A DNA stretch of 64,000 nucleotides, from the NCBI RefSeq assembly GCF_003018115.1, contig NZ_CP027457.1. The stretch is one strand, 5' to 3'. This DNA comes from Escherichia coli (GTDB taxonomy: Bacteria > Pseudomonadota > Gammaproteobacteria > Enterobacterales > Enterobacteriaceae). Position numbers and translations under genes: made by a program. The notes below the pieces were generated by a model, which saw only the letters and a list, made by a program, of their open reading frames with translations, had not been told where the DNA came from and searched no databases. Positions 2,429-35,510 of this stretch are shown here, one piece after another (the stretch's first letter is position 1; every line of letters begins with the position of its first letter).

Positions 2429-2465
2429 TAGGCATGATAGGACGCGTTAGCGTCGCATCAGGCAT
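2429..2465. repeat. REP (repetitive extragenic palindromic) element
   Basis: gtaggcatgataggacgcgttagcgtcgcatcaggc is an imperfect palindrome of the GCCTGATGCGACGC REP type, in the ygaY-proX intergenic space. Confidence 0.6.
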
Positions 2466-2517
2466 TGTGTACAGAGCGGCGGATGAGGCAAAAACGCCTA
2501 ATCCGCCCGAATAAAAA

Positions 2518-25630: not shown

Positions 25631-26980
25631 ATGTTAATTAATAAAAGCAACGGATTTAACGCTAGCGCAGTTTGGGGTAGTGGAAGTTATAATGAAAATA
25701 GATCTTCTAAACACATGGAGCTACTAGCTCATAGTATTGTAAAATTAATTTGTAAGGAAGCTGCATCAGAGACGTATCGCGGTGCTCTTGAAGTTTTACA
25801 AAAAATAATGTCTGAATGTATATATCATGAAGGCAACGCCTTTGTCATTATGGGAGCTGGAGAACAATTAAAACGTATTAAATATGATGTTGATGAAAAT
25901 AACTTAAAGGTATTCAATGTACACTTTGATAATAATGAAGCGTTAGTTACTGATGGTGAGCCTGACGTAGTATGTTTAAGCAAGCAGGTCTGGGAAAATC
26001 TTCTCATTAAACTAAAGCTGGAGAACAAAGAAAATACGGCTTCTGAAGTTCATGAATCAGCGAATAAAGGTGAGGTTGAGCAATTAGTTGAATGCTCTAA
26101 GAGAAATGAACAGACCCTTTTCGATAATATAAGAAAAAGTGATTTTCATGTTGGTTCACTTAAGCCAGGTAGTATGAATAGTGTTATTTTAGAAATGCCA
26201 CCAAATGTCTGTATGGAACCACGTAATTCATATGAAAACAAAATAGATGAGGTTTCATCTTTGTCAGAGCCAAAGGAACACACCATAGATATTCAAGAAA
26301 AAACAGATGCGTTTGTGAAGAAGTTCAAGGGGGTATTATTTGATAAAAATACAAGGTCTTCAGAGCTTCTGTTTAATTTTTATGAATGTTGCTATGTGTT
26401 TTTACCAAGAGCGCAGCCTCAGGATAAAATCGAAAGCTATAATTCAGCACTGCAAGCTTTTTCCATCTTTTGTTCATCTACGTTGACACATAATAATATA
26501 GGCTTTGATTTCAAGTTATTTCCAGAAGTCAAGCTGTCTGGAGAACATCTTGAAACGGTATTCAAATACAAAAATGGCGATGATGTCCGGGAGATAGCCA
26601 AAATTAACATTACTCTCCAAAAAGAAGAGGGTGGCTTATATAATCTACGTGGATTGGATTTTAAGGGATGCTTCTTTTCTGGACAGAACTTCAGTAACTA
26701 TGATATTCAATATGTGAACTGGGGAACGTCATTGTTTGATGTTGATACTCCGTGTATTTTTAATACGCCTGCTAACCATGAGAGTTATGAAAAATCATTA
26801 AAACCTGTAAGCGAAAACGGTTTAAATGGAGTCTTATCTGATCGTAATAAAAAAATAAAAATGATCACGGGTGTGGCACCATTCGATGATATTTTATTTA
26901 TGGATGATGACTTTGATGATAACTCCCCTGAGGATGCTCCCATTGAGAATAGTCCTGTTGTGAATAGTCCCCTTGTATGA
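25631..26980 (+). CDS. Uncharacterized AT-rich 449-aa protein (ypjC-like) with C-terminal pentapeptide-like repeats
   Basis: Long ORF with RBS gaggaa upstream; residues GLDFKGCFFSGQNFSNYDIQYVNWGTSLFD fit a pentapeptide-repeat pattern; position between tRNA-Ile and the pin remnant. Confidence 0.5.
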   Translation: MLINKSNGFNASAVWGSGSYNENRSSKHMELLAHSIVKLICKEAASETYRGALEVLQKIMSECIYHEGNAFVIMGAGEQLKRIKYDVDENNLKVFNVHFDNNEALVTDGEPDVVCLSKQVWENLLIKLKLENKENTASEVHESANKGEVEQLVECSKRNEQTLFDNIRKSDFHVGSLKPGSMNSVILEMPPNVCMEPRNSYENKIDEVSSLSEPKEHTIDIQEKTDAFVKKFKGVLFDKNTRSSELLFNFYECCYVFLPRAQPQDKIESYNSALQAFSIFCSSTLTHNNIGFDFKLFPEVKLSGEHLETVFKYKNGDDVREIAKINITLQKEEGGLYNLRGLDFKGCFFSGQNFSNYDIQYVNWGTSLFDVDTPCIFNTPANHESYEKSLKPVSENGLNGVLSDRNKKIKMITGVAPFDDILFMDDDFDDNSPEDAPIENSPVVNSPLV

Positions 26981-27299: not shown

Positions 27300-27525
27300 T
27301 GAAGAACTGCGTGCTCAGGGTTACCACTTCAACGTAAAACTGTGGCAGGAGGTCCGGTCTGAAAAAACTGCACAGGACATCATCGGCAGGGAACGCACTG
27401 GTAGTCTGTAAACTGAACCGACTGGGGCGCAGTATGTGGCATCTTGTCGTGCTGTTGGAGGAGCTGTGCGAACGTGGTATTAACTTTCGTGCTCTGGCCC
27501 AATCTATATTTGCCCAACAATGGGG
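27300..27525 (+). pseudogene. pinH: Remnant of a Pin/Hin/Gin-family DNA invertase (pinH-like fragment)
   Basis: Plus-strand translation ...[48 protein letters not shown] aligns with the central part of the intact invertase at 58439..59005 (LSAGDTLVVWKLDRLGRSMQHLVTLIEELRQRGVNFRSL); no N-terminal catalytic Ser region. Confidence 0.65.
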
Positions 27526-27906: not shown

Positions 27907-30900
27907 ATGAAATTTATGAACAGGACCAGTCCCCATTATTGTCGCCGCTCAGTACTTTCCTTATTGATATCTGCCCTGATATATGCCCCGCCCGGGATGG
28001 CGGCCTTTACTACTAATGTTATTGGTGTGGTAAACGATGAGACTGTAGATGGTGTCCAAAAAGTAGATGAACGAGGTACAACAAATAACACTCATATTAT
28101 CAACCATGGCCAGCAGAATGTTGAAGGCGGGGTATCCAATGGAAGTATTATTGAATCGGGTGGATATCAAGATGTAGGAAGGCATAATAATTTTGTGGGG
28201 CAGGCTAATAATACAACCATTAACGGGGGCAGACAGTCAATTCATGACGGGGGTATTTCCACAGGTACGACAATCGAGAGTGGCAATCAGGACGTTTATA
28301 CAGGTGGTATCAGCAATGGAACGACAATTAAGGGTGGTAATTCACACATAAGTGGGGGGACTGCGAATGGAACAATCATTGATGGTGGCAGCCAACGAGT
28401 AACAACTCAGGGGCATGTCGACAGTACAACGATAAATAAGTCTGGCTCTCAGGACATCACGCAAGGAAGTCTGGCAACGAACACAACCATAAATGGTGGT
28501 CGACAGTATGTTGAACAGAGCACAGTAGAAACAACAACCATTAAAAATGGCGGTGAGCAAAGAGTATATGAGAGCCGTGCGCTGGACACGACGATTGAAG
28601 GCGGAACTCAGTCTCTGAATAGTAAGTCAACGGCAAAAAATACGCAGATCTATTCTGGTGGCACGCAAATTGTTGATAACACCAGCACCTCGGATGTTAT
28701 TGAAGTTTATTCCGGTGGCGTGCTTGATGTTAGTGGTGGTACGGCAACAAATGTTACCCAGCACGATGGTGCAATTTTAAAAACAAACACTAACGGTACG
28801 ACGGTGAACGGTACGAATAGTGAAGGTGCATTCTCCATCCACAATCACGTGGCAGACAATGTGTTGCTGGAAAACGGTGGTCATTTAGACATAAACGCAT
28901 ATGGTTCGGCAAACAAGACGATTATCAAAGATAAAGGAACAATGTCAGTTTTAACCAATGCTAAAGCTGATGCGACCCGAATAGATAATGGCGGGGTTAT
29001 GGATGTTGCCGGAAACGCGACAAATACCATAATTAATGGTGGCACACAGAATATTAATAATTATGGCATAGCCACAGGCACTAATATCAACAGCGGAACG
29101 CAAAATATCAAAAGCGGCGGGAAAGCTGACACAACAATTATATCCTCCGGGAGCCGGCAGGTTGTTGAGAAAGATGGTACGGCAATTGGCAGCAATATTA
29201 GCGCCGGAGGCTCACTGATTGTCTATACCGGCGGTATTGCACATGGGGTTAACCAGGAGACGGGCAGTGCTTTAGTTGCCAACACGGGTGCAGGGACTGA
29301 TATCGAAGGATACAACAAGCTCTCTCACTTCACTATTACCGGAGGGGAGGCTAATTATGTTGTGCTGGAAAATACCGGCGAACTGACGGTAGTGGCTAAA
29401 ACCTCGGCGAAAAATACTACCATTGATGCTGGCGGTAAGCTGATTGTCCAGAAGGAGGCTAAAACAGATAGCACCAGACTTAATAATGGCGGCGTTCTGG
29501 AGGTTCAGGACGGTGGTGAGGCTAAGCATGTTGAGCAACAATCCGGCGGCGCATTAATTGCTTCCACGACCTCCGGAACACTTATCGAAGGAACCAACAG
29601 TTATGGTGATGCTTTCTACATCAGGAATTCAGAAGCTAAAAATGTAGTGCTGGAAAACGCTGGCTCATTAACAGTCGTCACTGGTTCCCGGGCAGTTGAC
29701 ACGATTATTAATGCCAACGGCAAAATGGATGTTTATGGAAAAGATGTTGGCACTGTACTCAATAGTGCTGGCACCCAAACAATATATGCCAGTGCCACTT
29801 CTGATAAAGCAAATATCAAAGGTGGCAAGCAAACGGTATATGGTTTAGCCACTGAAGCAAATATCGAAAGTGGTGAACAAATTGTTGATGGCGGGTCAAC
29901 AGAGAAAACACACATCAATGGTGGCACGCAAACCGTTCAGAATTATGGTAAGGCAATCAATACCGATATCGTCTCTGGCCTACAACAAATTATGGCAAAC
30001 GGGACAGCGGAAGGTTCCATTATTAATGGGGGTTCACAGGTAGTTAATGAGGGCGGTCTGGCTGAAAACTCGGTGCTTAATGACGGCGGCACACTCGATG
30101 TGCGGGAGAAAGGCAGCGCAACGGGGATACAGCAGAGTAGCCAGGGCGCTTTGGTTGCAACCACCAGGGCGACGCGGGTCACAGGAACACGCGCGGATGG
30201 CGTCGCGTTCAGCATCGAGCAGGGTGCGGCGAACAATATCCTGCTGGCAAATGGCGGCGTGTTAACCGTGGAGTCAGACACCACTTCCGCCAAAACACAG
30301 GTCAATACGGGCGGACGGGAGATCGTCAAAACAAAAGCCACTGCGACAGGCACGACGCTCACCGGCGGTGAACAAATTGTCGAGGGTGTGGCGAATGAGA
30401 CAACAATTAACGACGGCGGAATACAAACAGTTTCAGCTAACGGAGAGGCAATAAAAACAAAGATCAATGAAGGCGGAACGCTGACAGTCAACGATAATGG
30501 CAAAGCGACAGATATCGTCCAGAACAGCGGTGCCGCTCTCCAGACGAGCACGGCTGACGGTATTGAAATCAGCGGTACTCACCAGTACGGCACTTTTTCC
30601 ATTTCCGGCAATTTAGCGACCAATATGTTGCTGGAAAATGGCGGTAATTTATTGGTATTAGCAGGTACCGAAGCTCGCGACTCCACGGTTGGCAAGGGTG
30701 GGGCAATGCAAAACCTGGGTCAGGACTCCGCCACAAAGGTTAACTCTGGTGGGCAATATACCCTTGGGCGGTCAAAAGATGAGTTTCAGGCTCTGGCCCG
30801 GGCAGAAGATCTCCAGGTCGCTGGCGGGACGGCAATCGTCTACGCAGGTACGCTGGCGGATGCATCGGTCAGTGGCGCGACAGGAAGCCTGTCGTTAATG

Positions 30901-32502
30901 ACGCCACGGGATAATGTTACGCCAGTTAAACTCGAAGGGGCGGTCCGGATTACCGATAGCGCGACATTGACTCTGGGAAATGGCGTCGATACAACGCTTG
31001 CCGACCTGACGGCTGCCAGCCGGGGCAGTGTCTGGCTTAACAGCAATAATTCCTGTGCAGGCACCAGCAACTGCGAGTATAGAGTAAACAGTTTGCTACT
31101 TAACGACGGTAATGTTTATTTATCAGCACAAACAGCAGCGCCTGCCACAACTAACGGTATCTACAATACGCTGACAACCAATGAACTTTCCGGTAGCGGT
31201 AATTTCTACCTGCATACCAACGTTGCAGGCTCCCGGGGCGATCAACTGGTCGTCAACTACAACGCCACTGGTAATTTTAAAATCTTTGTTCAGGATACCG
31301 GCGTCAGCCCACAGTCTGACGACGCGATGACGCTGGTGAAAACAGGGGGAGGGGATGCTTCGTTTACGCTGGGCAATACCGGCGGTTTCGTTGATCTTGG
31401 GACCTATGAGTATGTCCTGAAAAGCGACGGCAACAGCAACTGGAACCTGACCAATGATGTCAAACCCAACCCGGACCCCAACCCAAATCCAAATCCGAAG
31501 CCAGACCCAAAACCCGATCCAACGCCAGACCCAAATCCAAAACCAGACCCGACTCCCGAGCCAACGCCGACACCCGTTCCGGAGAAACGCATCACGCCTT
31601 CTACCGCAGCCGTACTCAATATGGCAGCAACATTACCGTTGGTATTTGATGCTGAGCTAAACAGTATTCGCGAGCGGTTGAACATAATGAAAGCGAGTCC
31701 ACACAACAATAATGTCTGGGGGGCGACGTATAACACCCGTAATAATGTCACCACCGATGCGGGTGCCGGGTTTGAGCAGACGCTGACAGGAATGACAGTG
31801 GGGATCGACAGCCGTAATGATATTCCTGAAGGAATTGCCACGCTGGGCGCTTTTATTGGTTATTCCCATTCACATATCGGTTTTGATCGCGGAGGACATG
31901 GCAGTGTGGGCAGTTATTCTCTGGGCGGCTATGCCAGTTGGGAACATGAAAGTGGTTTCTATCTGGACGGTGTCGTGAAGCTGAACCGTTTTGAAAGTAA
32001 CGTAGCCGGTAAAATGAGCAGCGGTGGAGCCGCCAATGGCAGTTACCACAGCAACGGGCTGGGCGGTCACATTGAAACCGGGATGCGATTTACCGATGGT
32101 AACTGGAACCTGACGCCGTATGCATCGTTAACGGGGTTCACCGCTGATAACCCTGAATATCATTTATCCAATGGCATGGAATCGAAATCAGTCGATACCC
32201 GCAGTATATATCGTGAACTGGGTGCAACGCTGAGTTACAACATGCGTCTGGGGAACGGTATGGAAGTTGAGCCGTGGCTGAAGGCGGCTGTGCGCAAAGA
32301 ATTTGTCGATGATAACCGGGTGAAGGTGAATAATGACGGTAATTTCGTCAATGATTTGTCGGGCAGACGTGGAATATACCAGGCAGGTATTAAAGCCTCA
32401 TTCAGCAGTACGTTAAGCGGGCATCTCGGGGTGGGGTATAGCAACGGTGCCGATGTGGAATCCCCGTGGAACGCGGTGGCTGGTGTGAACTGGTCGTTCT
32501 GA
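27907..32502 (+). CDS. ypjA: AIDA/YpjA-type autotransporter adhesin
   Basis: Start MKFMNRTSPHYCRRSVLSLLISALIYAPPGMAA (signal peptide); glycine/threonine-rich repetitive passenger; proline-rich PNPDPNPNPNPKPDPKPDP linker; C-terminal beta-barrel ending ...AVAGVNWSF. Confidence 0.85.
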   Translation: MKFMNRTSPHYCRRSVLSLLISALIYAPPGMAAFTTNVIGVVNDETVDGVQKVDERGTTNNTHIINHGQQNVEGGVSNGSIIESGGYQDVGRHNNFVGQANNTTINGGRQSIHDGGISTGTTIESGNQDVYTGGISNGTTIKGGNSHISGGTANGTIIDGGSQRVTTQGHVDSTTINKSGSQDITQGSLATNTTINGGRQYVEQSTVETTTIKNGGEQRVYESRALDTTIEGGTQSLNSKSTAKNTQIYSGGTQIVDNTSTSDVIEVYSGGVLDVSGGTATNVTQHDGAILKTNTNGTTVNGTNSEGAFSIHNHVADNVLLENGGHLDINAYGSANKTIIKDKGTMSVLTNAKADATRIDNGGVMDVAGNATNTIINGGTQNINNYGIATGTNINSGTQNIKSGGKADTTIISSGSRQVVEKDGTAIGSNISAGGSLIVYTGGIAHGVNQETGSALVANTGAGTDIEGYNKLSHFTITGGEANYVVLENTGELTVVAKTSAKNTTIDAGGKLIVQKEAKTDSTRLNNGGVLEVQDGGEAKHVEQQSGGALIASTTSGTLIEGTNSYGDAFYIRNSEAKNVVLENAGSLTVVTGSRAVDTIINANGKMDVYGKDVGTVLNSAGTQTIYASATSDKANIKGGKQTVYGLATEANIESGEQIVDGGSTEKTHINGGTQTVQNYGKAINTDIVSGLQQIMANGTAEGSIINGGSQVVNEGGLAENSVLNDGGTLDVREKGSATGIQQSSQGALVATTRATRVTGTRADGVAFSIEQGAANNILLANGGVLTVESDTTSAKTQVNTGGREIVKTKATATGTTLTGGEQIVEGVANETTINDGGIQTVSANGEAIKTKINEGGTLTVNDNGKATDIVQNSGAALQTSTADGIEISGTHQYGTFSISGNLATNMLLENGGNLLVLAGTEARDSTVGKGGAMQNLGQDSATKVNSGGQYTLGRSKDEFQALARAEDLQVAGGTAIVYAGTLADASVSGATGSLSLMTPRDNVTPVKLEGAVRITDSATLTLGNGVDTTLADLTAASRGSVWLNSNNSCAGTSNCEYRVNSLLLNDGNVYLSAQTAAPATTNGIYNTLTTNELSGSGNFYLHTNVAGSRGDQLVVNYNATGNFKIFVQDTGVSPQSDDAMTLVKTGGGDASFTLGNTGGFVDLGTYEYVLKSDGNSNWNLTNDVKPNPDPNPNPNPKPDPKPDPTPDPNPKPDPTPEPTPTPVPEKRITPSTAAVLNMAATLPLVFDAELNSIRERLNIMKASPHNNNVWGATYNTRNNVTTDAGAGFEQTLTGMTVGIDSRNDIPEGIATLGAFIGYSHSHIGFDRGGHGSVGSYSLGGYASWEHESGFYLDGVVKLNRFESNVAGKMSSGGAANGSYHSNGLGGHIETGMRFTDGNWNLTPYASLTGFTADNPEYHLSNGMESKSVDTRSIYRELGATLSYNMRLGNGMEVEPWLKAAVRKEFVDDNRVKVNNDGNFVNDLSGRRGIYQAGIKASFSSTLSGHLGVGYSNGADVESPWNAVAGVNWSF

Positions 32503-32512
32503 CCATCAACGA

Positions 32513-32536
32513 AAAAGCCCACATCTGTGGGCTTTC
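32513..32536 (+). terminator. Rho-independent terminator downstream of ypjA
   Basis: Hairpin agcccacatctgtgggct followed by a T-run, immediately after the ypjA stop. Confidence 0.6.
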
Positions 32537-32663
32537 ATGTCGCCAGGAGCCGCGGCTCCTTTGCGTATCCTTTTTTGTCTCCTCACCGTCTGGTCGGTGT
32601 CCTGCTGAGACTGCTAACTTCCTGTTTTTGTTGGTGTTGTCCTTACACCGTCCAATCATGATT

Positions 32664-32708
32664 GGTGGAGCTGGCGGGAGTTGAACCCGCGTCCGAAATT
32701 CCTACATA
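32664..32708 (-). repeat. tmRNA (ssrA) 3'-end-like sequence: prophage att core copy
   Basis: Minus strand reads gtaggaatttcggacgcgggttcaactcccgccagctccacca, i.e. the acceptor/T-arm end of tmRNA with CCA; no upstream tmRNA body, so this is a partial duplicate. Confidence 0.7.
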
Positions 32709-32792
32709 CCATTTTCACTATAATAAAAACATTAACTTGCGTTTAAAATCAGTAAGTTAGTATTATCTTGTGTTTGCTCGTTTTACTCATTT

Positions 32793-33839
32793 TTAATGCT
32801 CTGTCGCCAATCTGTCGCCATTGTAGGTCAACGAAGGTTGAGCCTTCCCTTTGTTTGTTATAATTTCATCAAAGATAGCTGGATTATTATCTTTCAGTAA
32901 TCTTGCTAGTATAATGATTTGCCCAGACGAGCCATCATCCTTGAATGAAAGGAAATTATCGGTAATATCAAGAATATCAATGGTAAATTTGAAGTAAGTT
33001 TCAATTGTATCGCCAAGCTCAATGCTGGACATGAAGTTAGTAACCATTTCATATCCATCAAAGTATAAAGTTGCATGTTCATTTAACTCCATTGGAGTTA
33101 GGCAAAGCATTCGATTAAGTTCGGATAAGTGTTTTTCTATTGAATGAAGAGATTGCATTTGACGGATTAAAACTTCGTCAAACTGAGAGCCATGATTAGA
33201 TGAATGTATCTTCTCTAGGTTTTTTAGTATATCAACCCAGTGATTATTCACTTCACGTATGTATTCTTTATCTGTATTTTTAGGCCGTCCCTTCTCTGGT
33301 GAGCTATTTATGAAAATATATCTATATAGATGTATTGGGTAGTTAATTTTATAACTTATCTCTTTAGTACCATAATGACGTTCGCGTTTAATGGTTTTGT
33401 TAGGTAAATTGGTGAAATAATCAGTAACGAACTTTAGATGGCTATAGTAGCTATCAGATAGATTCTTTTGCTTGGTTTCCTCAATTTGTCGGTTTGTTTG
33501 AACTGTGCGGTGTATGTTTGCTACGACAGCAACAAATGGTATGGACAAAGAAAGTAAGGCGATAGGAAGCTTGCTAATTGCAATGAAATTATTAAAGCCC
33601 TCACTATCAAATTGAGGGGAATGTCCAAGCCAGGAAAATATACCAAAGTATATCGCTGAAAATACAGGAATCCTAAGTGATTGTTTAAATAAGTATTGAC
33701 TTGTTAATGGCCTTTCATCCATGTTAAAGCCTTTTTTTGATACGCATAGATATAATTCAAGGCATATATATAAAAAATATATTATGATAAGTAAGTACGA
33801 TATCCATGGGTATTGTTGGATATAGTTATTAACAAACAC
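32793..33839 (-). CDS. Prophage cargo: uncharacterized membrane-anchored protein (348 aa)
   Basis: Very AT-rich ORF between att core and integrase; N-terminal hydrophobic helices (YLLIIIYFLYICLELYL, IPVFSAIYFGIFSWLG, LPIALLSLSIPFVAVVANI) followed by a soluble domain; start overlaps the integrase stop. Confidence 0.6.
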   Translation of the reverse strand: MFVNNYIQQYPWISYLLIIIYFLYICLELYLCVSKKGFNMDERPLTSQYLFKQSLRIPVFSAIYFGIFSWLGHSPQFDSEGFNNFIAISKLPIALLSLSIPFVAVVANIHRTVQTNRQIEETKQKNLSDSYYSHLKFVTDYFTNLPNKTIKRERHYGTKEISYKINYPIHLYRYIFINSSPEKGRPKNTDKEYIREVNNHWVDILKNLEKIHSSNHGSQFDEVLIRQMQSLHSIEKHLSELNRMLCLTPMELNEHATLYFDGYEMVTNFMSSIELGDTIETYFKFTIDILDITDNFLSFKDDGSSGQIIILARLLKDNNPAIFDEIITNKGKAQPSLTYNGDRLATEH

Positions 33840-34868
33840 TTTCTAATTTTCTCCATCCAAGGTTAGCAAGAGGATTTTTGGTTACAGCATCTTCCAGATG
33901 GTCGGGAGCGAAGTGGGCGTAAATCATTGTCATTTTTATATCGACATGGCCCAGAATATCGCGCAGCACCAGTATGTTTCCGCCATTCATCATAAAGTGA
34001 CTTGCAAATGTATGTCGTAATACGTGTGTGCATTGCCCTTCTGGTAGCTCGATGCCAGCTCGTTTTACCGCACGTTCAAAAGCTTTCCTACAAGGTGTAA
34101 ATAATTTTCCCCTATTCTTAGGCAGTTCTTCATATAAATCCTTTGAAATAGGCACTGTTCGGTTTTTCTTTCCTTTAGTCTTGGTATAAGTGATACGGTA
34201 TTTTGACACCTGATGACTCTGCAGGTTTTCGGCTTCGCTCCAGCGTGCGCCGGTGGCCAAGCATATTTTTGCAATCATCAGCAGACTGGGGCTTTGAGAA
34301 TCAGCACAGGCATCCAGCAGACGTTTAATTTCTTCCGGGGTCAGGAACGCCAATTCACCCTCAGCAATTTTAAATGTTGGCAGCCCAGCAAGCGGGTTGG
34401 GGGCTGCCAGTGGCCCAGCTTTTTCAGTGTACCAAAAACAGATGATAGGTTGCGCTGTTCAAGATTTACCGTGCGGGGCTTAACGGGCGACATAAGCGTG
34501 CCATCTTCATTTCGTACTTCACCTTTTAACCGTGCTTCGCGGTATTTCGTAAACTCACCAGCTGTCAGTTCTGAGGCGATGGGATCGCCTAGACCATTAC
34601 AGATAATTCTAAGTTTCGCCATGAGGCGCTTGGGGTCTGCGAGTGTTTGACCATACAGGGAATACCACAGCTCAATTAATTCTGATAGATGTCGCCGATC
34701 TTCCTTTTCCCCTAGCCATGGTTTTTTGTTCACTTCTTCCATTGTGAAGCTTTCAAACGCAATGGCTTCGCCTTTGGTAGCAAATTGCTTACGCACGCGC
34801 TTACCATTGCGTCCATTGGGATAGCACTCACACAACCATTTTCCGTTCGGCTGTTTTCTGATGGTCAT
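33829..34868 (-). pseudogene. int: P2/186-family tyrosine integrase, split by an apparent frameshift in a C-run (as assembled)
   Basis: N-terminal half (ORF 34341..34868, MTIRKQPNGKWLCECYPNGRNGKRVRKQF...) and C-terminal catalytic half (ORF 33829..34353, ...GARWSEA...HVLRHTFASHFMMNGG...LGHVDIKMTMIYAHF) are in different frames; frames meet at the G/C homopolymer near 34399-34403. Confidence 0.8.
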
Positions 34869-34871
34869 AAG

Positions 34872-35510
34872 TTAGAGGTTCTTGATTACTTTGACTGCAC
34901 GTCCTAGGACTTCCACATCATCTACAGAACATTCAAATGAAGTGTCATCTTGGTTAACTACTATTTTGTTTCCGGGTATGCGCGCAATTTTGACGATGCT
35001 TTTAACTCCGTCCATATCGACTAACCAGAAGCCATTACTGACTTGTTTAACAGACGTATCCACTACAAAGCTATCATTAGCTGTTTTAACAAATAAAGCG
35101 TTGGATGAGTCACCATCGAGCAGGCTGCTATCAAGAAGAATTTCATCACTTGGCTGCAGTTCGCCGTTCTTCAGTTCAACACGTTTGATGCTAGGAGCGA
35201 CGATCTTAGAAAGTGGTCTTACAGTGACAGGAGGTTCATTTTTGAGATTTGTTTCTTCGTTCTCACACGCATACATATCTCCTTGACCAGTAGCCAGCCA
35301 TAGAAGGGAAACTCCTGTTTCAAGGGCACATTGGATTACCCATTCGGCAGGAAAGCTATCCCTTAAGTATCTGTTAGCCATAGTGCTTTTTGATACTTCC
35401 AGATGTTCGCAGAGCTGCTGTCGTGAGCTGAAGTTGTAAGCCTTAATAAGCCTATTAATCGCATCGCGCCCACCACTATCATTCCCCGCCTTGATTAAAC
35501 TCATAATCAA
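34872..35510 (-). CDS. cI: Phage 186-type CI immunity repressor
   Basis: 212-aa ORF with N-terminal HTH and C-terminal region matching remembered 186 CI blocks (CALETGxxLxWLxTGxG, WLVDxxGxxSI, FECxxDDxxxLGR). Confidence 0.75.
   Translation of the reverse strand: MIMSLIKAGNDSGGRDAINRLIKAYNFSSRQQLCEHLEVSKSTMANRYLRDSFPAEWVIQCALETGVSLLWLATGQGDMYACENEETNLKNEPPVTVRPLSKIVAPSIKRVELKNGELQPSDEILLDSSLLDGDSSNALFVKTANDSFVVDTSVKQVSNGFWLVDMDGVKSIVKIARIPGNKIVVNQDDTSFECSVDDVEVLGRAVKVIKNL

What the first reader, a model, noticed from the sequence alone, without database searches (positions are those of the whole stretch)
32600..32720. Prophage junction is marked by a partial tmRNA 3' end next to ypjA
The minus strand carries about 45 nt identical to the tmRNA 3' end including CCA but no tmRNA body, so this is the duplicated att core. 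The intact ssrA is expected beyond the far (tail-gene) end of the prophage, outside the window. By my recollection of the K-12 map, the ssrA-to-ypjA interval there holds the cryptic prophage CP4-57, so here a different, apparently complete P2/186-family phage uses the same tmRNA site.
Basis: partly seen in the sequence, partly recalled or inferred. Interest (0 to 1): 0.5.

Follow-up and report, generated by a model that had tools for sequence, protein, structure and literature searches.

The report
Prophage attR: duplicated tmRNA 3′ end
The 45-base tmRNA fragment next to ypjA is the ordinary right-hand attachment scar (attR) of a Fels-2-type P2/186-like prophage inserted in the E. coli tmRNA gene; this is a well-known arrangement, and this copy has a broken integrase.

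Summary
Window 32663-32707 (minus strand) matches the last 45 nt of E. coli ssrA, CCA included, at 45/45. It is unique in the window, and no tmRNA body is present.

It is the attR of a 34-kb Fels-2/SopEPhi-type Peduoviridae prophage:
- Its phage-side arm matches the attP of free phage Cartapus and of Fels-2.
- Its ypjA-side arm is the sequence that follows ssrA in about 2,500 unoccupied E. coli genomes.
- The adjacent integrase lineage is 93% identical to Fels-2 Int, and Apl is 100% identical.

In a near-identical contig (100% identical over the window's last 5.6 kb), a complete ssrA carrying the same core lies 2.9 kb past the window edge, followed by smpB.

- The prophage is not intact. The integrase has a 1-bp deletion that recurs in at least 24 independent contigs, and both alternative tail-fibre tips are frameshifted.
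- CP4-57 uses the same gene but a shorter segment of it (about 14-17 nt, lacking T357). The window's copy keeps T357.

The same junction occurs in 94 of 5,426 complete genomes. This is already known biology and of low interest.

The parts
27916..32502 (+). ypjA (adhesin-like autotransporter), the chromosomal gene flanking the junction
   Evidence: tblastn of K-12 YpjA: residues 1-1526 map to 27916-32499 at 97% identity. Annotated as ypjA/EhaD in relatives.
32503..32662 (-). B' arm: the native 160-nt sequence that follows ssrA in unoccupied genomes. It contains hairpins, including the ypjA-proximal AAAGCCCACAnnTGTGGGCTTT.
   Evidence: Same flank, with the same 160-nt length (two short divergent patches), as the K-12 CP4-57 attR flank. 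ssrA 3' end + this flank is contiguous in 2,519 of 5,426 complete genomes, best match 100%.
32663..32707 (-). att core: 45 nt identical to ssrA positions 319-363 (T-arm, acceptor 3' strand, CCA). T357 is retained.
32708..32792 (-). P arm: AT-rich phage-side non-coding arm of attR
   Evidence: Homologous to the attP left arm of phage Cartapus and to the int-side end of Fels-2.
32793..33722 (-). Cargo ORF (309 aa, function unknown) in the variable slot between att and int
   Evidence: 98.7% identical to WP_000344474-type hypothetical protein. No Pfam hit; phrog_17460 of unknown function; weak PADLOC '2TM effector' hit at 8e-5. Relatives carry GapS1, a RES-domain protein or other genes in this slot.
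33829..34868 (-). Integrase pseudogene (Fels-2-type tyrosine recombinase) with a 1-bp deletion between 34406 and 34407. This splits it into a 175-aa Int_N fragment and a 174-aa catalytic fragment.
   Evidence: Alignment to the intact CFSAN051542 int; two tblastn HSPs in different frames; Pfam Int_N and Phage_integrase on separate ORFs. The intact homologue is 93% identical to Fels-2 Int. The exact 175-aa fragment occurs in at least 24 independent contigs.
34872..35510 (-). cI repressor (186/Fels-2 type)
   Evidence: Pfam Phage_CI_repr + Phage_CI_C; 98.6% identical to the TW10690 CI.
35621..35863 (+). apl (excisionase / lytic-switch regulator)
   Evidence: 79/79 residues identical to Fels-2 Apl.
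35896..64000 (+). Rest of the prophage: cII, fil, dam, A, dinI-like, cargo, Q-P, O-N-M-L, lysis, baseplate, fibre, sheath, tube, E/E', and T (cut at residue 890 of 1025 by the window edge)
   Evidence: Gene-by-gene tblastn against the intact TW10690 prophage; annotation of relatives.
42357..44138 (+). Cargo: 593-aa GmrSD_N-domain protein in the A-Q slot (the slot that carries old in P2), with a 111-aa DUF8087 ORF at 41489-41824 (-)
   Evidence: Pfam GmrSD_N 1.6e-22; PADLOC NsnA 8e-31; DUF8087 seen.
56449..58383 (.). Invertible tail-fibre segment bounded by 27-nt inverted repeats. It holds two alternative fibre C-termini, both frameshifted here (+1 A at 56617-56620; -1 C at 58176).
   Evidence: Inverted repeats. 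The segment is flipped in L016 relative to the window. Indels.
58439..59005 (+). DNA invertase (Cin/Gin type)
   Evidence: 97% identical to the TW10690 recombinase; Resolvase Pfam in relatives.

Best explanation
The 45-nt tmRNA 3' fragment is the core of attR, the int-proximal junction of a roughly 34.2-kb Fels-2/SopEPhi-type Peduoviridae (P2/186-like) prophage that inserted into a previously unoccupied ssrA-ypjA site.

Mechanism. The free phage carries attP, made of a P arm, a copy of the last 45 nt of ssrA, and its own terminator hairpin. Its tyrosine integrase recombines this with the identical 3' end of chromosomal ssrA. The tmRNA gene is rebuilt from its own body plus the phage-borne 3' end and terminator (attL, off-window at about 66.9 kb). 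The original 3' end is displaced 34 kb away, next to ypjA (attR, seen here).

The displaced copy has no promoter and no 5' body, so it is not a gene. Its only role is as a substrate for Int + Apl excision. In this lineage the integrase is frameshifted, so the prophage is most likely locked in place unless Int is supplied in trans. Because the attR copy is still wild-type, T357 included, any excision would restore a normal ssrA. This differs from CP4-57 in K-12.

Shown: the sequence identities, the arm homologies, the empty site, the far-end ssrA in a near-identical contig, and the frameshift. Inferred: the recombination chemistry and the loss of excision competence.
For: Core 45/45 identical to ssrA and unique in the window. 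attP in cos-ended phage Cartapus and in the joined ends of Fels-2 has the same core, P arm and hairpin. A table of 16 core copies sorts cleanly into attP, attB, attL and attR arm combinations. The empty attB is contiguous in 2,519 of 5,426 genomes. The intact homologue of the window's Int is 93% identical to Fels-2 Int, and Apl is 100% identical. The published statement that Fels-2 and SopEPhi integrate in ssrA is in PMC3448106. L016 is 100% identical to the window's last 5.6 kb and carries a full tmRNA with the core 2.9 kb further on, then smpB. The same layout occurs in CFSAN051542, TW10690 and E6. The int frameshift was seen, reproduced exactly in at least 24 contigs, while 25 neighbouring chromosomal genes show no frameshift.
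Against: The far end was not read in the window's own genome, only in a near-identical contig and in relatives. Whether L016's contig has the same ypjA junction was not read. No experimental evidence exists here for integration or excision, and the strand-exchange point within the 45 nt is unknown. A helper Int from another Fels-2-type prophage could still mobilise the element.
Confidence: 0.93

Rival explanations
1. The fragment is the old CP4-57-type attR (K-12 'psaA'), left by a P4-like island, and the P2-like phage merely lies beside it.
For: The ypjA-side flank is the same sequence as the K-12 CP4-57 attR flank.
Against: K-12 psaA shares only about 14-17 nt with ssrA and lacks T357; here 45 nt are identical with T357 present. 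The sequence upstream of the core is the Fels-2/Cartapus P arm, not CP4-57. The window contains no CP4-57 DNA and no IntA homologue. The shared flank is simply native DNA, since it follows ssrA directly in 2,519 genomes.
Confidence: 0.01
2. In the source genome the prophage is part of a tandem array. Another ssrA-targeting island lies between ogr and ssrA, so ssrA is much further than about 3 kb beyond the window.
For: Tandem arrays at ssrA are real: TW10690 and E6 carry a P4-type-integrase island next to the same phage.
Against: In those arrays the extra island lies on the int/attR side, not the ogr side. L016, which is 100% identical to the window's last 5.6 kb, has ogr, a 160-aa gene, ssrA and smpB directly. 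All six relatives read have ssrA immediately after the ogr-side cargo.
Confidence: 0.04
3. The frameshifts are assembly errors, and the prophage is fully functional and excisable.
For: Two of the three indels lie in homopolymer runs (A-run 56617-56620; C-run at 58176). The 58176 deletion is absent from the closest relatives L016, L019 and L021.
Against: The int deletion is not in a homopolymer (CACTGG[T]CAGCC), and the exact truncated product is called in at least 24 contigs from independent NCBI, ENA and Logan assemblies. The +1 A is shared by L016, L019 and L021-L023. All 25 chromosomal genes in the window are intact.
Confidence: 0.03
4. The fragment is a chance match or a functional small or split (two-piece) tmRNA remnant.
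For: A weak Rfam hit to permuted tmRNA (19.6 bits).
Against: 0 of 100 shuffles gave a match. The hit is far below the gathering score of 47. There is no 5' acceptor partner, no tag ORF and no tmRNA call. E. coli has a one-piece tmRNA, and it is present intact in the relatives.
Confidence: 0.005

Closest known systems
Salmonella phage Fels-2 (and SopEPhi) integrated in ssrA
   Same: Same gene order, with ogr at the ssrA end and int at the far end. The Int lineage is 93% identical (intact homologue) and Apl is 100% identical. The 45-nt core is identical, and the P arm and phage-supplied terminator hairpin are homologous. ssrA integration is stated in PMC3448106.
   Different: The host is E. coli rather than Salmonella, and the cargo genes differ. 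Here int is frameshifted and both fibre tips are broken. The late region is closer to E. coli Peduoviridae such as phage Cartapus (genus Elveevirus).
CP4-57 cryptic prophage of E. coli K-12 (ssrA-ypjA interval)
   Same: Same target gene and same chromosomal interval. Its attR sits at the same 160-nt distance from ypjA.
   Different: It has a P4-type integrase (IntA) next to ssrA and no phage structural genes. Its attR shares only about 14-17 nt with ssrA and lacks T357, so its excision inactivates tmRNA (PMC10107115). The window's element duplicates 45 nt with T357 intact and has no sequence in common with CP4-57.
Coliphage 186
   Same: cI-apl-cII-fil early region and P2-type late genes. Integration into the 3' part of a small RNA gene with a long core that rebuilds the gene (PMC3448106).
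   Different: 186 targets ileY/ileX. In this window ileY (24804-24879) is unoccupied. The integrase specificity is different.

Membership tests
attR of a Fels-2/SopEPhi-type prophage in ssrA | Core identical to the 3' end of the host tmRNA gene, running to CCA | tested here: met
   45/45 identical, unique in the window, 0 chance matches.
attR of a Fels-2/SopEPhi-type prophage in ssrA | The phage-side arm equals the P arm of attP in the free phage genome | tested here: met
   Homologous to Cartapus attP and to the int-side end of Fels-2.
attR of a Fels-2/SopEPhi-type prophage in ssrA | The bacterial-side arm equals the sequence that follows ssrA in unoccupied genomes (attB B') | tested here: met
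   The reconstructed attB is contiguous in 2,519 of 5,426 genomes, up to 100% identity.
attR of a Fels-2/SopEPhi-type prophage in ssrA | Adjacent Fels-2-type tyrosine integrase transcribed towards the core | tested here: met
   Position and orientation as in Fels-2. The intact homologue is 93% identical to Fels-2 Int, but the window's copy is a frameshifted pseudogene.
attR of a Fels-2/SopEPhi-type prophage in ssrA | Second core copy at the other prophage end, forming the 3' end of an intact ssrA | not testable with these tools
   It lies outside the window. It is met in L016 (100% identical over the last 5.6 kb of the window), with tmRNA at window-equivalent 66905-67267, and in CFSAN051542, TW10690 and E6.
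attR of a Fels-2/SopEPhi-type prophage in ssrA | Int/Apl-dependent excision that regenerates attP and attB | not testable with these tools
   This needs an experiment. The sequence predicts failure without Int supplied in trans.
P2/186-like phage (Peduoviridae) | Conserved gene set and order (int-cI-apl-cII...A; Q-P/O-N-M-L; lysis; baseplate V-W-J-I-H-G; FI-FII-E-T-U-D-ogr) | tested here: met
   All genes from int to T were found in order at 90-100% aa identity to an intact relative. The nearest phage records are Peduoviridae. U, D and ogr lie off-window and are present in L016.
CP4-57-type (P4-like integrase) island | IntA-type integrase and CP4-57 genes between ssrA and ypjA | tested here: not met
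   No blastn hit of CP4-57 DNA and no tblastn hit of IntA in the window.
CP4-57-type (P4-like integrase) island | Short attR core (about 14-17 nt) lacking T357 | tested here: not met
   The window has 45 nt with T357.
Functional tmRNA gene | Full-length RNA with 5' acceptor strand, tag reading frame and pseudoknots | tested here: not met
   No ARAGORN call; Rfam 30.7 bits against a gathering score of 47, with only the 3' end aligned.

The most novel reading that the evidence does not exclude
The displaced attR copies in this phage family may record, and buffer, the state of the tmRNA 3' end. The window's wild-type copy indicates insertion into an intact, empty ssrA site. Twelve natural genomes (for example CFSAN051542) instead carry the CP4-57-type deltaT357 lesion in the 45-nt attR copy while their ssrA is wild-type. 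That pattern would arise in one of two ways. A Fels-2-type phage could integrate into, and thereby repair, an ssrA(deltaT357) left by CP4-57 excision. Alternatively, a resident Fels-2-type prophage could shield ssrA when a CP4-57-like island excises from a tandem array. Either way, the prophage would interact with the published CP4-57 'rescue-switch'. Separately, the int-dead prophage seen here in at least 24 assemblies might be retained as a carrier of defence cargo.
Probability: 0.2. Interest if true: 0.4.

Novelty: already known. Interest (0 to 1): 0.1.

Why it matters
For annotation, it fixes one prophage boundary to the base (32707/32708) and predicts the other (about 66,949). It shows that the ssrA-ypjA interval in this strain holds a single Fels-2-type prophage and no CP4-57. 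It also flags the element as probably non-excisable because its integrase is frameshifted.

Biologically this is a textbook case of a phage rebuilding the small-RNA gene it integrates into. The only mildly useful nuance is that the attR copy is wild-type at T357. Loss of this prophage would therefore not inactivate tmRNA, whereas CP4-57 excision does.

Tried and rejected
1. I tried to read Williams 2002/2003 ('Traffic at the tmRNA gene') and Pelludat 2003 for core lengths and sublocations. None is held, so I compared Fels-2 directly instead.

2. I considered CP019275.1 ('plasmid p13P477T-2', 37 kb, in the phage collection) as a circular attP-bearing episome. Its annotation shows a chromosomal chunk with ssrA, smpB and recN and many frameshifts, so I rejected it as attP evidence.

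3. I looked for the source genome among complete E. coli genomes. The best junction match is only 98.3% (CFSAN051542), so the source is not in that collection. Exact-protein look-ups then found near-identical contigs instead.

4. I tested whether the frameshifts could reflect a generally indel-prone assembly. This was rejected because all 25 chromosomal genes are intact.

5. I checked whether the 177-nt 'ssrA' that PGAP annotates at attR in strains 1409 and E6 reflects extra tmRNA homology upstream of the core. The alignment shows none that is convincing.

6. The TW10690 DUF262 cargo protein did not match the window's 593-aa ORF, because the cargo differs. I identified the window's ORF by Pfam and PADLOC instead.

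Full report
**Observation.** Window 32663-32707 reads TGGTGGAGCTGGCGGGAGTTGAACCCGCGTCCGAAATTCCTACAT on the + strand. This is the reverse complement of the last 45 nt of E. coli ssrA, CCA included, as shown by alignment to a full, annotated ssrA. It is the only copy in the window even with three mismatches allowed, and none of 100 shuffles gave a match. ARAGORN finds no tmRNA in the window. Rfam finds none at gathering score. A permissive scan gives a 30.7-bit partial hit (gathering score 47) in which only the T-arm and acceptor 3' strand align well. The + strand ORF that ends at 32502 is ypjA, at 97% aa identity to K-12 YpjA over its full length.

**Chromosomal context.** Window 1-32648 aligns as one block with K-12 from ygaH to just past ypjA (97.6% identity), and all 25 K-12 proteins tested are full-length with no frameshift. 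In K-12 the interval between ssrA and ypjA holds CP4-57, whose attR is annotated as a 14-nt pseudo-ssrA, 'psaA', 160 nt from ypjA. The window has the same 160-nt spacer. It contains no CP4-57 DNA and no IntA homologue.

**What lies to the right.** From 32708 the window carries a P2/186-like prophage:
- an AT-rich arm;
- a 309-aa cargo ORF;
- an integrase, cI, apl, cII, fil, dam, A and a dinI-like gene;
- a GmrSD-like cargo gene;
- the genes Q-P, O-N-M-L, lysis, baseplate, an invertible fibre segment with its invertase, sheath, tube and E/E';
- the tape-measure gene, cut by the window edge at residue 890 of 1025.

The nearest phage records are Peduoviridae.

**Proof that the fragment is an att core.** Phage Cartapus is cos-ended. 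Between its ogr-side cargo gene and its int-side cargo gene it carries the sequence ...AAAATGGT, then the same 45 nt, then AATAAATCAAGGGGTTACG...CGTAGCCCCTTTTT, which is a terminator hairpin. Joining the ends of the Fels-2 record gives the same structure. I tabulated all 16 core copies in the fetched loci, and they sort cleanly into four arm combinations:
- attP = P-core-P';
- attL = ssrA body-core-P', in CFSAN051542, TW10690, E6, L016, L017 and L020;
- attR = P-core-B', in the window, L010, L011, CFSAN051542 and strain 1409;
- attR followed by a second island, in TW10690 and E6.

The reconstructed empty site (ssrA 3' end joined to the window's B' flank) exists as one contiguous place in 2,519 of 5,426 complete E. 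coli genomes, up to 100% identity. The window therefore shows a single insertion into a common unoccupied site.

**The integration module is that of Fels-2.** The intact homologue of the window's integrase (from CFSAN051542) is 93% identical to Fels-2 Int. The window's Apl is 79/79 identical to Fels-2 Apl. That Fels-2 and SopEPhi integrate in ssrA is stated in PMC3448106, citing Pelludat et al. 2003. The tmRNA gene as a prophage hotspot in E. coli and Salmonella is described in PMC3603311.

**The far end.** The window stops inside the tape-measure gene. An exact-protein look-up returned L016 (GCA_051443285.1, a 100.6-kb contig). L016 has one mismatch to window 46960-56475 and is 100% identical to 58357-64000, with only the invertible segment flipped. 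It continues 3.5 kb beyond the window and contains the rest of T, then U, D, ogr and a 160-aa gene. Next comes a complete 363-nt tmRNA gene (tag ANDENYALAA) at window-equivalent 66905-67267, whose 3' end is the same 45 nt, and then smpB. Complete genomes CFSAN051542, TW10690 and E6 show the same end. The caveat is that this was read in a near-identical assembly, not in the source genome itself. The predicted prophage size is about 34.2 kb.

**Corrections to 'apparently complete'.**
- The integrase has a 1-bp deletion between 34406 and 34407 (CACTGG[T]CAGCC). This splits it into a 175-aa N-terminal fragment and a 174-aa catalytic fragment. The exact 175-aa product is called in at least 24 contigs from independent NCBI, ENA and Logan assemblies, with the same neighbours. 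L010 is 99.98% identical to window 24341-44868. The frameshift is therefore real and lineage-wide.
- The expressed fibre C-terminus (gp53-like) has an extra A at 56617-56620 relative to TW10690 and E6, and the closest relatives share it.
- The alternative (Collar) C-terminus has a 1-bp deletion at 58176 that L016, L019 and L021 lack. It lies in a C-run and could be an assembly error.

In L016's flipped orientation the fibre is an intact 515-aa protein.

**'Same tmRNA site' needs qualifying.** The K-12 psaA matches ssrA only over CCGCCAGC-CCACCA and lacks T357. This is why CP4-57 excision yields an inactive tmRNA (PMC10107115). The Fels-2-type element duplicates 45 nt, and the window's copy keeps T357. 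Excision here would therefore restore a wild-type ssrA wherever the strands exchange.

**How ordinary it is.** The same junction (P arm + core + ypjA flank) covers at least 80% of a 221-nt query in 94 of 5,426 complete genomes. With this particular cargo gene and ypjA allele, only CFSAN051542 matches across 3 kb.

**Mechanism.**
- Shown: the identities, the arm logic, the empty site and the rebuilt ssrA in relatives.
- Inferred from established tyrosine-recombinase biology: Int-mediated exchange between attP and the ssrA 3' end. The phage supplies the new 3' end and terminator, and the displaced native 3' end becomes an inert scar. Excision needs Int + Apl. With int broken, the prophage is probably grounded.

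**Verdict.** This is a correct, well-read observation of a known phenomenon. Novelty: already known. Interest: low.

Noticed in passing
window 56449-58383 (indels at 56617-56620 and 58176); L016 9499-11413: The tail-fibre invertible segment, bounded by 27-nt inverted repeats, is in opposite orientations in the window and in the otherwise identical L016, so the invertase was recently active. In the window both alternative fibre C-termini are frameshifted. The +1 A is shared by the lineage. The -1 C is seen only in the window and lies in a C-run, so it may be an assembly error.
   Followed up: partly
L001 3750-3793 (CFSAN051542 attR); L002 7164-7208 (strain 1409 attR); hits H166-H178: attR copies of this phage family vary at tmRNA position 357. 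Twelve natural complete genomes have the CP4-57-type deltaT357 in the 45-nt attR copy next to ypjA while keeping a separate ssrA, and strain 1409 has T357C. The only genome where the ssrA gene itself is deltaT357 at an empty site is a laboratory strain (DTU-1). This is compatible with IntA-mediated loss of a CP4-57-like island from a tandem array, or with phage integration into, and repair of, a deltaT357 ssrA.
   Followed up: partly
window 32793-33722 (-); 41489-44138; L016 19341-19823: There are three variable cargo slots in this phage lineage. The att-int slot holds a 309-aa protein here (phrog_17460, weak 2TM-effector hit), and GapS1, a RES-domain protein or a 343-aa protein in relatives. 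The A-Q slot holds GmrSD_N/NsnA-like 593 aa plus DUF8087 here, and other DUF262 or AAA proteins elsewhere. The ogr-attL slot holds a BRCT/ligase-like 160-aa protein, or a reverse-transcriptase-domain gene in strain E6. These look like defence hotspots.
   Followed up: partly
L005 6636-6812; L002 7164-7340: RefSeq/PGAP annotates the attR scar in strains E6 and 1409 as a 177-nt 'ssrA transfer-messenger RNA' that overlaps a CDS. Only the last 45 nt are tmRNA-derived, so this is an over-extended partial-model hit.
   Followed up: partly
window 24804-24879 (+): ARAGORN and Rfam call a tRNA-Met(CAT). By position this is ileY (tRNA-Ile2, CAU), which PMC3448106 lists as the attachment site of coliphage 186. 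It is unoccupied here, because the region is colinear with K-12.
   Followed up: partly
window 25631-26980 (+); 27350-27508: ypjC and ypjB form one 449-aa ORF here (YpjCB), whereas K-12 has them split. A pinH-like invertase remnant lies upstream of ypjA, as in K-12.
   Followed up: no
L007 (CP019275.1, 'plasmid p13P477T-2'): A 37-kb record filed as a circular plasmid and included in the phage collection is really a chromosomal segment (prophage plus ssrA, smpB, ratA, bamE, recN) with many frameshifts. It is probably a mis-assembly.
   Followed up: partly
H56/H71 (OK490418.1 'Klebsiella phage Kp4865-2'): A record labelled as a Klebsiella phage carries an integrase 100% identical to the E. coli CFSAN051542 Int and about 96% nt identity to this prophage. 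The host label may be wrong, or the phage may cross genera.
   Followed up: no
window 2431-2508 (-): Rfam naRNA4 (nucleoid-associated ncRNA, REP-derived) hit just above the gathering score, between proX and ygaY.
   Followed up: no
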